Shown here one piece after another: positions 47,863 through 50,428 of a stretch of DNA of 64,000 bases. This stretch comes from Candidatus Latescibacterota bacterium. Its GTDB lineage: Bacteria; Latescibacterota; UBA2968; UBA8231. Position 1 is the stretch's first letter. Each line of letters begins with the position of its first letter. The translations under genes and the position numbers were made by a program. The stretch lies in assembly GCA_963422735.1 (NCBI GenBank), contig OY730476.1, forward strand, positions 160,001 to 224,000, given 5' to 3'. The notes below the pieces were generated by a model. It was not told where the DNA came from. It saw nothing but the letters and a program-made list of their open reading frames with translations, and did not search any database.

Positions 47863-48240
47863 GTGGCTGTAACAATTATGCGTACGGTGCGGCCTAGTCC
47901 GCAATGGCAAGACAGCTTAATCCGGCTAGAGAGCGGCCAGCGGGTCGTGGTGGATGCCGAGGAAACTTGGTCGCCGGACATGCGCAACCAAATCGCTTGG
48001 TGCGGTGCCGACGGCTTGTACAACCTGCCCGCAGACTCGGAGTACTTACTGCCGGGGGCCAATGTCGGTGCGCTCGTGGCGCGCATTGGCGACGACGGGC
48101 CGATCTTTGCCATGGGCAGCCGCTACGACTTTATCGCCGACCGCGCGGGCATTCTGCATTTGGCCATGAACGAAAACCCGAGCTTCAACAACCAAGCTGG
48201 CAAAATCGTCGCCCAAATCATCGTCTTTAGCCAACCATGA
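47863..48240 (+). CDS. LecA/PA-IL-like lectin-fold protein
   Basis: ~120 aa; GALVARIG and LHLAMNE..FNNQAG resemble PA-IL GALVMKIG and ITLIYND..YGNNSG. Confidence 0.6.
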   Translation: MAVTIMRTVRPSPQWQDSLIRLESGQRVVVDAEETWSPDMRNQIAWCGADGLYNLPADSEYLLPGANVGALVARIGDDGPIFAMGSRYDFIADRAGILHLAMNENPSFNNQAGKIVAQIIVFSQP

Positions 48241-49277
48241 GCCTCGCTATAAGCGCGGCGACCGCAGCCTATTTGCGCGCTGGGCATCCGCCTGTCCGTG
48301 CGATCACGCCGCTCGCCGAGGGGGTCTGGCGCGTCGAAGACGCAGACGGTCGCAAGGTTGTGGTCAAGCATCAGCTCTTCGGGTGGCTGACGCAGGGTAC
48401 GGCTTACGACCTGTTGGAGGTCGAGCGCGATGTGCTCGGCCTCTTGCACAGAGCGGGTTGTCCGGTGCCGGCCGTGCTGGGTATCGATCAGGAGGCGCAT
48501 TGCATTTTTTTACAATGGGTCGGTGATCGCACCCTTGACGACGCGATCCAAGCCGGGGAGCGGGCGGCGACGCGACAGGCGATTGTAGGGCTATGCGCGA
48601 TTGAAAGGGTGTGCGCCCAGCACTTGGATCAGCTAGCATCGCGGGTCGTGCCAGCGGCCGGCCGCGCCGCGCTGATAGCGGTGTGGGACGAGGTAGGGAC
48701 GCGGGGCCGCGAAGGGCTAGAGCAGTTGTTCGGTCGCCTCGGGCAACCCTCTGACGCGACGGAGGCACTGCGGCTGCTAGAAGAAATGCACCGCTGGCTG
48801 GCCGGGCGTCCGCCTGTGCTGGGAAGCACCGACTACAACGCCCGCAACGCCGTCGTTGACCCAGAGGGGAAGAGAGTGCGCTTCCTCGAATTTGCCAAGA
48901 TCGGCTGGGACTGGACGGAACGGCGCTTGACTCAGTATACTACTAGTATGGGCAGTGGCCGACAGAACGGGCGCATGCGCTCGCTGCTGGACGCGCCCGC
49001 AGCGCGTTTGTATGCCGAGGTGTCCGAGTGCAGCGACGGGGCTCGTGCGCTCGACTATCACCGAATCTTTTTTCTTTTAAACAGCGCGGCCCTGTTGTGC
49101 GCGGCCCTCGACGGCGAGCCGTACGCGCTGGCCCTGCGCCAACGCTGGAAAAGACCCTATGCGCGGCTGCGACAATGCGCGGCTATGCTGGCCGAGGACC
49201 TGAGCGCAGACCTAAGTGCGGCCGAGTTTAGGGGCCGGTTGCAGTTTTGTTTGTCACCACGAGGAGGAACCCTATGA
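48237..49277 (+). CDS. APH/choline-kinase-like phosphotransferase with atypical motifs
   Basis: VVVK, E..VL..L..AGCPVP, STDYNARN (Brenner-like), FLEFAKIGW. Confidence 0.6.
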   Translation: MSLAISAATAAYLRAGHPPVRAITPLAEGVWRVEDADGRKVVVKHQLFGWLTQGTAYDLLEVERDVLGLLHRAGCPVPAVLGIDQEAHCIFLQWVGDRTLDDAIQAGERAATRQAIVGLCAIERVCAQHLDQLASRVVPAAGRAALIAVWDEVGTRGREGLEQLFGRLGQPSDATEALRLLEEMHRWLAGRPPVLGSTDYNARNAVVDPEGKRVRFLEFAKIGWDWTERRLTQYTTSMGSGRQNGRMRSLLDAPAARLYAEVSECSDGARALDYHRIFFLLNSAALLCAALDGEPYALALRQRWKRPYARLRQCAAMLAEDLSADLSAAEFRGRLQFCLSPRGGTL

Positions 49278-49540
49278 GCGAGTGGAACACTCTCGACTTC
49301 AAGCCCCGGGCCCGGGGTATGATCATCGGCGATATTCCCTGGCTGGCGCGCATAGCCGACAAAGCGCGGGCGCACCAGCAGCAACGCATCGGCGACTACG
49401 TATTTCCCTGACCGGCCGACAAGCACTTCCTGGAGGAAGTGGAGCTAACAGCCGCAGCATTCGAGGAGATGGTGGCCGCGTCCGAAGACGACGATGCACT
49501 GATCGAAAAAATGAAAGCGCACTTGGCCAGAAAGCACTAG
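49274..49540 (+). CDS. DUF5069-like 88-aa protein with in-frame TGA at codon 46; putative selenoprotein (not in ORF track)
   Basis: GAGGAGG RBS; MSEWNTLDFKPRARGMIIGDIPWLARIADKARAHQQQRIGDYVFP-TGA-PADKHFLEEVELTAAAFEEMVAASEDDDALIEKMKAHLARKH; fills the gap between the flanking genes exactly. Confidence 0.75.
49424..49441 (+). promoter_or_regulatory. Candidate bacterial SECIS hairpin
   Basis: CACTTCC-TGGA-GGAAGTG; stem starts after a 12-nt spacer and apical loop after 19 nt from the TGA at 49409-49411; G at loop position 2. Confidence 0.6.
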
Positions 49541-49541
49541 C

Positions 49542-50428
49542 ATGAGCACCTCAGAGCAAACAGTACGCACGCCAAAGCGGAGGGTCCGGGAGTTAGAGGT
49601 GGAGGTCGTCCAAGTGCGCCGCGACACTCCAGACACTACCACGCTCTTTATGTCCGCTGGCGACGAACCGGTCGAATACCAAGCCGGCCACTTCTGCACC
49701 ATTGATCCGCATCAGTTCGGCGAGTTGGAGCACTTCACCGCCTATTTAGAAGATCAAAAGGGGCAGCGCGAAAAGCCGCGGGCCTATTCCATGGCCTCTG
49801 CTCCGCACGAGCAGCACCTCGCCATCACGATCAAAGAGGAGCGCTACGAGAGCGGCCAGACGCCGTACCCGCCGCTGCTATCGCCGCTGCTGACTTATTA
49901 TATCCAAGGGGGCCGGCGGCTGGTCATCAGTGGTTTTACCGGGGCGTACACCTTTCCCGCCAATGTCTGCGAGCGCACCGATCACATTATTCACGTGTGC
50001 GCTGGCAGCGGCATAGTGCCCAACAGGAGCCTGATCAAAGAGAGCCTGCATCGCGGCGACCCGCTCCGGCATACCTTGCTGTTTAGCAACAAGACGCGCC
50101 GCGACATTATTTTCTACGAGGAATTTGAGGTACTGCGGGCGCAGTATCCCGACCAACTCGACGTGATCCACTGCATCACCCGCGAAGACCCGGTCGGCAT
50201 TCGCGGTGCCCGCAACGAGCGCATCTCTGAGAGCTTTTGCGCGAAGTTGCGCCCCATCCCTCCAAGGTGATGGCCTATAGCTGTGGCCCGGGCATCACGC
50301 CCTACGAGCGCCGGGCGGCCCGGGCCAAGGGCGAAGACCCGGAGCCGCGTTTCGTCGAAAACATGGTCGCGCTCTTGCGTGCACACGGGTTGGACAAAAA
50401 TCAGATCCGGCAGGAAAGCTGGGGCTGA
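49542..50428 (+). CDS. FAD/NAD(P)-binding ferredoxin-reductase (FNR)-type oxidoreductase, with a 1-nt frameshift near 50230
   Basis: RAYSMAS, CAGSGIVP, LLFSNKT in 49542-50270; YSCGP...ESWG in 50237-50428; adding one G restores ISEELLRE. Confidence 0.8.

What the first reader, a model, noticed from the sequence alone, without database searches (positions are those of the whole stretch)
49274..49540. Hidden DUF5069-like gene with in-frame UGA at a Cys position plus a SECIS-like hairpin: candidate unrecognised selenoprotein
Seen: the ORF track misses this gene because a TGA at codon 46 splits it. It has a strong GAGGAGG RBS, overlaps the upstream gene by ATGA, and after read-through ends 1 nt before the next ATG. 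The 42 codons after the TGA read as normal helical protein. A 7-bp hairpin (CACTTCC-TGGA-GGAAGTG) has its loop 19 nt after the TGA, with G at loop position 2. Knowledge: the bacterial SECIS consensus puts a small G-containing apical loop roughly 16-37 nt after UGA. From memory, DUF5069 proteins read PR...G..WL.R..DKARA...G..G.Y.Y.CP.D..FL, so the TGA falls on the Cys of the CPxD motif. Inference: Sec replaces a redox-active or metal-binding Cys. I do not know this family as an established selenoprotein family. Caveat: the region holds many pseudogenes, so a nonsense mutation is possible.
Basis: partly seen in the sequence, partly recalled or inferred. Interest (0 to 1): 0.9.

Follow-up and report, generated by a model that had tools for sequence, protein, structure and literature searches.

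The report
Unlisted DUF5069 selenoprotein gene with SECIS
A small gene that looks broken by a stop codon most likely encodes a selenocysteine-containing protein of an uncharacterised family, conserved with its RNA hairpin signal across two phyla of uncultured bacteria and missed by public annotation.

Summary
The 88-codon ORF at 49274-49540 is a DUF5069 protein (Pfam 48.9 bits, cut-off 27). Its in-frame TGA (49409-49411) aligns with the family's conserved Cys in Y-x-[YF]-P-C-P-x-D.

It is not a pseudogene.
- The TGA sits at the same codon in 51 of 54 orthologues from 61 related genomes.
- It is present in 66 of 80 loci from a wider genome scan, including Candidatus Poribacteria.
- None of 85 distinct TGA genes has a further stop before the normal end.

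The hairpin 19 nt downstream is kept in all 85 TGA forms and in none of 16 Cys forms. It shows compensatory pair changes, and synonymous sites in its FLEE codons are frozen only in TGA forms. It meets the published bacterial SECIS model.

The genome has SelA, SelB, tRNA-Sec and a Sec-containing SelD.

Neither DUF5069 nor PF16798 appears in a 2026 inventory of 119 prokaryotic selenoprotein families, in NCBIfam 20.0, or in any searched paper.

Verdict: a real, apparently unlisted selenoprotein family. Its function is unknown; a redox role is an inference.

The parts
49261..49267 (+). Shine-Dalgarno-like GAGGAGG, 6 nt before the start codon
   Evidence: Read directly from the sequence.
49274..49540 (+). 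DUF5069-family selenoprotein gene: 88 codons plus a TAG stop. The start ATG overlaps the upstream gene's TGA (ATGA).
   Evidence: Translation with TGA=U. Pfam PF16798, 48.9 bits against a cut-off of 27. 51 homologues at 49-72% identity.
49409..49411 (+). In-frame TGA, codon 46, read as selenocysteine
   Evidence: Aligns with the Cys of YPCPAD. Sits at the same codon in 51 of 54 orthologues and 66 of 80 loci.
49424..49441 (+). bSECIS-like hairpin: 5' arm 49424-49430, loop UGGA 49431-49434, 3' arm 49435-49441. It lies inside codons 51-56 (H-F-L-E-E-V).
   Evidence: MFE -9.8 kcal/mol in a 24-nt window. 94.5% of cells paired, with covariation, over 73 distinct sequences. RNAalifold finds the same helix. 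Synonymous sites are frozen only in Sec forms.
49538..49540 (+). True stop codon (TAG), 1 nt before the next gene's ATG
   Evidence: In 85 distinct Sec-form genes the true stop falls at codon 85-94.
48237..49277 (+). Upstream 346-aa gene of unknown family (weak Bud32-kinase-like hit). It ends in an ordinary TGA stop that overlaps the selenoprotein start.
   Evidence: No Pfam hit. NCBIfam Bud32 E 0.0023, far below its cut-off. Directly upstream in 43 of 81 Sec loci and 13 of 16 Cys loci with enough flank.
47863..48240 (+). Conserved 125-aa ORF of unknown family, first gene of the locally conserved trio
   Evidence: 63-95% identical in related loci. No Pfam or PDB sequence match.
49542..50270 (+). 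Downstream 242-aa flavoprotein of the ferredoxin-NADP+ reductase family. A possible electron donor (inference).
   Evidence: Pfam NAD_binding_1. 42 PDB sequence matches, the best being ferredoxin-NADP+ reductases and NqrF. Directly downstream in 31 of 84 Sec loci and 10 of 16 Cys loci.

Best explanation
The ORF at 49274-49540 is an intact gene for an 88-residue selenoprotein of the DUF5069 family.

How decoding most likely works: when the ribosome reaches UGA at codon 46, the 7-bp hairpin with the UGGA tetraloop, 19 nt downstream and inside codons 51-56, recruits SelB-GTP carrying Sec-tRNA(Sec). Selenocysteine is inserted instead of terminating, and translation continues for 42 more codons to TAG.

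Sec replaces the family's conserved Cys in Y-x-[YF]-P-C-P-x-D. In the predicted fold this residue sits directly before helix 47-55, the usual place of a reactive thiol or selenol.

What is shown: the conserved UGA/Cys pairing, the conserved and covarying hairpin, coding constraint after the UGA, and the Sec machinery.

What is inferred: that selenium is actually inserted, and that residue 46 is the active site of a redox or chalcogen/metal-handling reaction. The idea that in this lineage it is fed with electrons by the FNR-type flavoprotein encoded 1 nt downstream has low confidence, about 0.25.
For: (1) UGA/Cys pairing. The TGA is at codon 46 in 51 of 54 orthologues fetched from 61 related genomes of 4 families; the other 3 have TGC. 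It is TGA in 66 of 80 loci from the genome-contig scan and TGC/TGT in 14. Metagenome homologues have Cys there (47 of 48 rows of A2, counting the query's stand-in C). So does the solved relative 3omd_A.

(2) The gene stays coding after the TGA. None of 85 distinct Sec-form genes has another stop in codons 47-85. Mean pairwise differences at codon positions 1/2/3 are 0.36/0.34/0.58 downstream, against 0.23/0.17/0.55 upstream.

(3) The hairpin.
- Over 73 distinct rows, 94.5% of cells are paired against 77.8% in shuffles (0 of 500 reach it), and against 29-69% when the partner is slid.
- Pair 26:39 is CG in 39 rows and GC in 34, never unpaired.
- Pair 25:40 is AU 25, GU 23, UA 19, GC 6, never unpaired.
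- RNAalifold predicts the same helix.
- Counting contiguous pairs from the loop, 84 of 85 Sec forms have 6 or 7, while the 16 Cys forms have at most 4.
- Median MFE is -8.0 kcal/mol in Sec forms and -4.1 in Cys forms.

(4) Synonymous sites of codons 52-55 are frozen in Sec forms: TTC 83 of 85, CTG 85 of 85, GAG 84 of 84, GAA 83 of 83 (0.16/0/0/0 bits). In Cys forms they vary (1.0/1.0/0.7/0.9 bits). Other F, L and E codons of the same Sec genes also vary (0.7-2.2 bits).

(5) The window's hairpin meets all four constraints of the published bSECIS model: loop of 3-9 nt, stem of 4-16 bp, G in the first two loop positions, spacing of 16-37 nt, MFE <= -7.5 (PMC13188914 Fig. 2 legend). Its values are UGGA, 7 bp, 19 nt and -9.8.

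(6) Machinery in the same genome: SelA 479 bits, SelB 354.5 bits, tRNA-Sec(UCA) 70 bits, and SelD 373.6 bits with its own in-frame TGA in a UxxK motif. SelB is over its cut-off in 50 of the 51 related genomes with the TGA form, and in 5 of 5 Poribacteria genomes tested.

(7) TGA is otherwise a stop here. The upstream gene ends in TGA at 49275-49277, and 7 of 85 Sec-form orthologues also terminate in TGA.

(8) On the gene tree the Sec and Cys forms interleave, needing at least 5 changes, or 3 if only starred branches count.

(9) An independent DNA run keeps the TGA: the X8 contig differs at 3 places, none at the codon.
Against: - No direct evidence of selenium incorporation or of read-through exists; all evidence is comparative.
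- The hairpin alone is not more stable than shuffles.
- 30 of 85 Sec forms have only 6 pairs, and 30 of 85 miss the -7.5 kcal/mol mark in the narrow 24-nt window.
- The sequences are kin. The C-G/G-C swap maps to about one split of the tree, so independent compensatory events are few. The measure 'pairs with a change on both sides' does not exceed shuffles (3 against 3.0).
- The tested structure was derived from one of the sequences, which favours it in the slide control.
- Cys-form genomes also have SelB (5 of 5 tested, plus G037 and G053). So the Sec machinery does not predict which form a genome carries.
- Function is not supported by context. No neighbour is shared by all lineages, and the only structural relative is of unknown function.
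Confidence: 0.9

Rival explanations
1. Pseudogene, or an assembly or sequencing error: a nonsense mutation or miscalled base broke an ordinary Cys-type DUF5069 gene.
For: One close relative's contig gives a frame-shifted version of this gene (P0051). Many related genomes are single-contig MAGs that may carry indel errors.
Against: The same TGA is at the same codon in 85 distinct genes from many independent assemblies of two phyla, at 44-97% protein identity. There are no further stops or frameshifts after it in any of the 85. It stands in an independent run (X8).
Confidence: 0.01
2. The TGA is a genuine stop. The product would be a 41-45-residue peptide, as public annotation has it, and the downstream part would be a separate small ORF or a conserved RNA.
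For: Public records call the Poribacteria orthologues 41-aa hypothetical proteins. The window has a GTG at 49439 that could start a 33-aa ORF.
Against: Cys-form homologues are single 88-91-aa proteins spanning both halves. Codon-position periodicity continues after the TGA. The GTG at 49439 lies in the hairpin arm and is CTC, CTT, CAC or GCG in other lineages, so no start codon is conserved. The fold model joins both halves into one domain (pLDDT 82.3).
Confidence: 0.03
3. Read-through without selenium: the hairpin stimulates insertion of a standard amino acid (Trp, Cys, Gly or Arg) at UGA by a near-cognate or suppressor tRNA.
For: Downstream structures can promote stop-codon read-through in general (established knowledge, not tested here). 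No selenium evidence exists. A few short ENA contigs were translated with W at this codon (P0050).
Against: UGA paired with a conserved Cys is the signature of Sec, not of Trp or Gly read-through. The hairpin fits the SelB-type bSECIS model in loop, G position and spacing. The full Sec machinery and a canonical Sec-containing SelD are present. aragorn found 48 tRNA genes, and tRNA-Sec was the only row my filter for a UCA anticodon picked out.
Confidence: 0.05

Closest known systems
Bacterial selenoprotein genes decoded through an in-ORF bSECIS hairpin (for example fdhF/FdhA and SelD)
   Same: In-frame UGA aligned with Cys in homologues. A stem-loop immediately downstream with a small G-containing apical loop, 16-37 nt from the UGA. 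Dependence on SelA, SelB, SelD and tRNA-Sec, all of which are present.
   Different: The protein family is not among the 119 families and subfamilies in Table 1 of PMC13188914, and it has no NCBIfam model. The hairpin core UUCC-UGGA-GGAA is nearly invariant across two phyla. It differs from the structure predicted after this genome's own SelD UGA.
Pfam DUF5069 (PF16798), including the solved structure 3omd (uncharacterised protein, Leptospirillum rubarum)
   Same: Sequence match over the Pfam cut-off. Profile match to 3omd_A at E 1.4e-11, with the same Y-x-C-P-x-D motif. The predicted fold matches 3omd_A (TM 0.67 normalised to the query).
   Different: Sec replaces the conserved Cys. This is a short form of 88 residues covering profile positions 4-79 of 133. 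3omd is 145 residues.
Small single-Sec selenoproteins of unknown function listed in recent inventories (for example DUF523, DUF1858 and DUF3179 selenoproteins, and hypothetical proteins DG, DW and DF)
   Same: Predicted purely by Sec/Cys pairs plus a SECIS, with function unknown, as described in PMC12013277 (passages) and PMC13188914 (Table 1).
   Different: Different Pfam family. Here the support rests on 85 distinct Sec genes, whereas deep-Sep's Table 3 lists three of its nine new families as having no TGA-containing homologues in other Sec-utilising bacteria (passages). No CxxU or UxxC motif is present: the Sec motif is P-U-[PGA]-A-D with no nearby second Cys.

Membership tests
Bacterial selenoprotein gene (Sec-UGA plus bSECIS) | In-frame UGA that aligns with a conserved Cys in homologues (Sec/Cys pair) | tested here: met
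   Alignments. 16 distinct genome Cys forms and 46 metagenome Cys forms have C at that column.
Bacterial selenoprotein gene (Sec-UGA plus bSECIS) | UGA-containing orthologues in other Sec-using organisms, with the reading frame conserved beyond the UGA | tested here: met
   51 of 54 orthologues and 66 of 80 loci carry the TGA. None of 85 has extra stops, and third-position excess persists downstream.
Bacterial selenoprotein gene (Sec-UGA plus bSECIS) | bSECIS model: apical loop of 3-9 nt, upper stem of 4-16 bp, G in the first two loop positions, 16-37 nt from the UGA, MFE <= -7.5 kcal/mol (PMC13188914 Fig. 2 legend) | tested here: met
   The window has loop UGGA, 7 bp, 19 nt and -9.8 kcal/mol. 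Among 85 Sec forms, 55 reach -7.5 in a 24-nt window and the rest score -6.3 to -7.4. The bSECISearch program itself was not available.
Bacterial selenoprotein gene (Sec-UGA plus bSECIS) | The hairpin is under RNA-level selection (covariation, suppressed synonymous change) and is absent from Cys forms | tested here: met
   Caveat: the sequences are related, and independent compensatory events are few.
Bacterial selenoprotein gene (Sec-UGA plus bSECIS) | The genome encodes SelA, SelB, SelD and tRNA-Sec | tested here: met
   SelA 479.4 bits, SelB 354.5 bits, SelD 373.6 bits and tRNA-Sec 70 bits with a UCA anticodon.
Bacterial selenoprotein gene (Sec-UGA plus bSECIS) | Selenium is actually incorporated at the UGA (75Se labelling or mass spectrometry) | not testable with these tools
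   No proteomic or labelling data could be reached. RNA-library contigs of roughly 90%-identical relatives cover the gene, but that does not show translation.
Pfam DUF5069 (PF16798) | Score over Pfam's gathering cut-off | tested here: met
   48.9 bits against a cut-off of 27, residues 11-86 on profile positions 4-79 of 133. The match is partial: the C-terminal third of the profile is absent.
Pfam DUF5069 (PF16798) | Shared fold with the solved member 3omd | tested here: met
   The AlphaFold model has pLDDT 82.3. The Foldseek top hit is 3omd_A with probability 1.00 and TM 0.67 (query-normalised), though E is only 0.05.
Thioredoxin-fold or CxxC-type redox selenoproteins | CxxU or UxxC motif, or a thioredoxin-like fold | tested here: not met
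   The motif is P-U-P-A-D with no Cys within 3 residues. The model is all-helical after a short N-terminal strand pair. There are no thioredoxin-fold hits in PDB.

The most novel reading that the evidence does not exclude
DUF5069 is a selenoprotein family missing from current inventories. Its Sec/Cys at the N-cap of helix 2 would then be the first identified active-site residue of this domain of unknown function.

The Sec form carries a minimal, almost invariant UUCC-UGGA-GGAA SECIS that dictates the protein sequence F-L-E-E and forces the flanking residues to co-vary. It is shared by Latescibacterota and Poribacteria. That is compatible with either an old origin or gene transfer between these phyla. 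(I recall both as sponge-associated; no call tested that habitat.)

In the window's lineage it would work as a selenol redox module with the adjacent FNR-type flavoprotein.
Probability: 0.5. Interest if true: 0.62.

Novelty: new member of a known kind. Interest (0 to 1): 0.58.

Why it matters
If true, it adds a family to the roughly 119 known prokaryotic selenoprotein families. It also marks the conserved Cys/Sec as the likely active site of DUF5069, a domain with a solved structure (3omd) but no known function, because Sec/Cys pairs are typically found at redox-active or catalytic positions (as stated in PMC13188914).

It also shows that public annotation truncates these genes. Poribacteria orthologues are recorded as 41-aa hypothetical proteins on 180 contigs for one sequence alone. 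The selenoproteomes of Latescibacterota and Poribacteria are therefore under-counted.

The hairpin is a clean natural example of an RNA signal constraining codon choice and amino-acid sequence.

Tried and rejected
- Single-sequence folding: the 71-nt stretch is no more stable than shuffles (z 0.38), so it cannot stand as evidence by itself.
- Rfam scan of 49200-49600: only a chance SNORD71 match at E 6.8. I saw no bacterial SECIS family among the matches.
- NCBIfam: no family for the protein.
- PDB by sequence and by fold: only 3omd, of unknown function. This gave no functional lead.
- ESM Atlas with the natural Cys homologue P0002, skipping PF16798: no usable hit.
- PDB sequence searches of the two upstream genes: nothing. 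Pfam gave nothing for orf125.
- Search for a universal gene neighbour: none found.
  - The orf125 / kinase-like / DUF5069 (+FNR-like) arrangement holds only in part of the Latescibacterota.
  - Families f2 and f4 instead have what I read as an RsmD-like methyltransferase gene upstream. That name is my reading of the translated N-terminus and was not tested.
  - The one Poribacteria locus examined lies between a large membrane protein and what I read as a PheA-like gene. That too is an untested reading.
- Test of whether Cys forms are confined to genomes without Sec machinery: rejected. 5 of 5 Cys-form genomes tested, plus G037 and G053, have SelB. Only G036 (93% complete) lacks it.
- RNA evidence:
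  - RNA-library contigs of roughly 90%-identical relatives (X15 record 1; X19 records) overlap the gene.
  - The tool warns that DNA may be present in such libraries.
  - 20 differences were not shown, so I cannot say whether those contigs keep the TGA.
  - I therefore make no claim of expression.
  - X3 is near-identical and may be the source of this DNA, so it is not independent.
- Complex prediction and the search of protein representatives were not used, because the report claims no binding.
- Literature:
  - 'DUF5069' and 'PF16798' each gave 0 papers.
  - 'selenoprotein' + 'Poribacteria' gave 1 unrelated paper, seen as a listing only.
  - PMC13188914: I read passages and section 7 parts 1-2, including the whole of Table 1.
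  - PMC12013277 and PMC13326102: passages only.
Candidate lists there (BSepDB Table S2, deep-Sep Table S2) and the groundwater-MAG study by Deng et al., which I know only from its mention in a passage of PMC13188914 and did not see, may already contain this family.
This call repeats it with that field added.
Full report
**The observation**

- A GAGGAGG motif lies at 49261-49267, 6 nt before ATG 49274.
- The ATG overlaps the TGA stop (49275-49277) of the upstream ORF 48237..49277.
- An in-frame TGA at 49409-49411 is codon 46.
- The frame then runs for 42 more sense codons to TAG 49538-49540, 1 nt before ATG 49542 of the next ORF.
- The hairpin CACTTCC-TGGA-GGAAGTG occupies 49424-49441. Its loop starts 19 nt after the TGA.
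- Read through, the 88-residue product matches Pfam DUF5069 (PF16798) at 48.9 bits against a cut-off of 27.

Taken alone the hairpin is unremarkable: a 71-nt stretch folds no better than shuffles (z 0.38).

**The TGA stands at a conserved Cys**

A search of the 5.8-billion-protein collection gave 51 hits, mostly 88-91 residues long and 58-72% identical. In the alignment the TGA column is the Cys of an almost invariant Y-x-Y-P-C-P-A-D motif. The one solved relative, 3omd_A (uncharacterised protein of Leptospirillum rubarum), has Y-T-Y-N-C-P-L-D at the same place.

Two hits were odd:
- P0050 has W at that column.
- P0052 stops right before it.

Both turned out to be Poribacteria genes with TGA there.

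**The TGA is conserved**

I searched 61 related genomes (15 genera, 4 families of one class).
- 54 have an orthologue. Of these, 51 carry one TGA, always at codon 46, and 3 carry TGC.
- The other 7 genomes gave only weak paralogue hits.

A scan of one genome per species (GTDB) found 170 relatives, and the best 80 were examined: 66 have TGA and 14 have TGC or TGT.

By their record titles the TGA forms lie in two groups:
- Candidatus Latescibacterota MAGs. Some bins are labelled Gemmatimonadota or Planctomycetota, and one is labelled Alphaproteobacteria.
- Candidatus Poribacteria: 19 distinct TGA genes and 1 Cys gene.

Its nearest relatives, at 97% protein identity, are titled Latescibacterota.

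After removing duplicates, the 134 loci give 85 distinct complete TGA genes and 16 distinct Cys genes.
- None of the 85 has another stop in codons 47-85. The true stop falls at codon 85-94.
- Differences between genes are concentrated at third codon positions after the TGA (0.36/0.34/0.58), as they are before it (0.23/0.17/0.55).

An independent DNA run (X8) carries the TGA. Its contig differs from the window at three places, none of them in the codon. Pseudogene and sequencing-error readings are therefore excluded.

**The hairpin is a selected RNA element tied to the TGA**

In the 60-nt alignment of the 85 TGA forms, the core TTCC-TGGA-GGAA is nearly invariant. For the 7-pair helix:
- 94.5% of cells are paired, against 77.8% in shuffles (0 of 500 reach it) and 29-69% with slid partners.
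- Pair 26:39 is C-G in 39 distinct rows and G-C in 34, never unpaired.
- Pair 25:40 is A-U 25, G-U 23, U-A 19 and G-C 6, never unpaired.

RNAalifold independently returns the inner six pairs.

The covarying nucleotides lie in the codons flanking F-L-E-E. The amino acids there therefore change together (H/R…V, K…L, M/L…H, R…A), as the pairing dictates.

Synonymous variation is abolished at codons 52-55 in the TGA forms: TTC 83 of 85, CTG 85 of 85, GAG 84 of 84, GAA 83 of 83. It is normal at the same codons in the Cys forms (TTT 8, TTC 8, and so on). It is also normal at other F, L and E codons of the TGA forms.

Comparing the two forms:

| Measure | 85 TGA forms | 16 Cys forms |
|---|---|---|
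| Contiguous pairs from the loop | 6 or 7 in 84 of 85; the exception, L134, folds with a bulge | at most 4 |
| Median MFE, 24-nt window (kcal/mol) | -8.0 | -4.1 |

The window's hairpin is -9.8 kcal/mol.

Caveats:
- The rows are related.
- The C-G/G-C swap corresponds to roughly one split of the tree.
- One of the five measures does not beat the shuffles.
- The structure was taken from one of the sequences.

**Fit to the known signal**

The published bacterial SECIS model asks for four things (PMC13188914, Fig. 2 legend, read):

| Constraint | Model | Window |
|---|---|---|
| Apical loop | 3-9 nt | UGGA (4 nt) |
| Upper stem | 4-16 bp | 7 bp |
| G in the loop | among the first two positions, mostly G followed by G or U | G at position 2, followed by G |
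| Spacing from the UGA | 16-37 nt | 19 nt |
| MFE | <= -7.5 kcal/mol | -9.8 kcal/mol |

The window meets all of them.

**The machinery is present, and TGA is otherwise a stop**

The genome has the full set:
- SelA, 479 bits.
- SelB, 354.5 bits.
- tRNA-Sec with a UCA anticodon, 70 bits.
- SelD, 373.6 bits. Its own in-frame TGA lies in G-G-U-A-S-K, the known UxxK Sec site of SelD (Table 1 of PMC13188914).

SelB is over its cut-off in 58 of the 61 relatives. Among the 51 with the TGA form, only G024 (75% complete) lacks a hit. All 5 Poribacteria genomes tested have it.

TGA still ends the upstream gene in the same operon. It also ends 7 of the 85 TGA-form orthologues themselves. So this is local recoding, not a changed genetic code.

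Cys-form genomes mostly keep SelB too. On the gene tree the two forms interleave, needing at least 5 changes, or 3 if only starred branches count. Interleaved Sec and Cys forms are, as far as I recall, common in selenoprotein families.

**What the protein may do**

The AlphaFold model (mean pLDDT 82.3) has helices at 23-35, 47-55, 60-69 and 73-87. Residue 46 therefore caps the N-terminus of the second helix. The only structural or sequence relative in the PDB is 3omd, of unknown function.

No second Cys lies near the Sec. A Cys at position 70 is frequent in the Cys forms and rare in the Sec forms:

| Set | Cys at position 70 |
|---|---|
| Alignment A2 (48 rows, including the query and the W-form P0050) | 27 of 48 |
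| Genome Cys forms | 6 of 16 |
| Sec forms | 4 of 85 |

This hints at a resolving Cys that the Sec forms do without. The pattern is not phylogenetically independent.

Gene context differs by lineage:
- In the window's genus, a conserved 125-aa ORF and a 346-aa gene with a weak kinase-like hit precede the gene. A ferredoxin-NADP+-reductase-family flavoprotein follows 1 nt after it.
- This arrangement holds for only part of the phylum. The kinase-like gene is upstream in 43 of 81 Sec loci and 13 of 16 Cys loci. The FNR-like gene is downstream in 31 of 84 Sec loci and 10 of 16 Cys loci.
- Families f2 and f4 have an RsmD-like gene upstream instead (my reading).
- The Poribacteria locus examined has unrelated neighbours.

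I therefore commit only to a reactive selenol at residue 46 in a redox or chalcogen/metal-handling role. The FNR-like protein as electron donor in this lineage is a low-confidence inference.

**Comparison with what is known, and novelty**

The mechanism is the ordinary bacterial Sec-insertion mechanism. What appears to be new is the family.
- PF16798/DUF5069 is not among the 119 families and subfamilies of the 2026 inventory. I read Table 1 in full, and searched for 'PF16798' in that text.
- The protein matches no NCBIfam 20.0 model. That library holds many selenoprotein models.
- The words DUF5069 and PF16798 occur in none of about 8.4 million searched papers and preprints.
- The deep-Sep and BSepDB papers do not mention the family in the passages I read.
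- Public protein records truncate the Poribacteria orthologues to 41 residues, labelled 'hypothetical protein'.

I rate it a new member of a known kind. It is real with about 0.9 confidence and of moderate interest.

Noticed in passing
L136-L156 (Poribacteria loci); proteins P0050, P0052, P0053-P0068: Public collections hold the Poribacteria orthologues as 41-aa 'hypothetical proteins' cut at the TGA. One such sequence is on 180 contigs. A few 81-aa versions from short ENA contigs carry W at the Sec codon, apparently called under a TGA=Trp code.
   Followed up: partly
G000:C1:3576379-3577302 (-), locus L020: The genome's own SelD has an in-frame TGA in G-G-U-A-S-K (UxxK), so it is itself a selenoprotein. 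The structure predicted after that UGA does not resemble the UUCC-UGGA-GGAA hairpin.
   Followed up: partly
P0051 (76 aa, ENA, contig of 10318 nt): A close relative's copy of this gene is 96% identical over the first third and then shifts frame near the KARA codons. This is either a real frameshift or an indel error of that assembly.
   Followed up: no
G000:C1:4080018-4081088 (+), and similar places in most relatives: Open frames of roughly 430-480 aa, without stops, carry two or three weak DUF5069-like stretches. They appear to be multi-repeat paralogues of the domain.
   Followed up: no
L058, L060 (G038, G040) and five other Sec-form genes: Seven of 85 Sec-form genes use TGA twice, once as Sec at codon 46 and once as the real terminator. 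Only the first is followed by the hairpin.
   Followed up: partly
codon 70 of the gene (window 49481-49483) across homologues: A second Cys at position 70 (x-C-x-D-D-D) is common in Cys forms: 27 of 48 rows of A2 and 6 of 16 genome Cys forms. It is rare in Sec forms (4 of 85). It may be a resolving Cys. The pattern is not corrected for relatedness.
   Followed up: partly
L157 5062-5640 (-), L158 4032-4613 (+), L160 5180-5782 (-): In families f2 and f4 the DUF5069 selenoprotein gene directly follows a 192-200-aa gene. I read its N-terminus as RsmD-like (16S rRNA methyltransferase), but no family search was run on it.
   Followed up: no
gene tree: The Poribacteria genes form one starred clade. 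It groups (support 90) with those of Latescibacterota families f2-f4 rather than lying outside all Latescibacterota, and it shares the same hairpin core. This is compatible with transfer between the two phyla, but the 73-column tree is weak.
   Followed up: no
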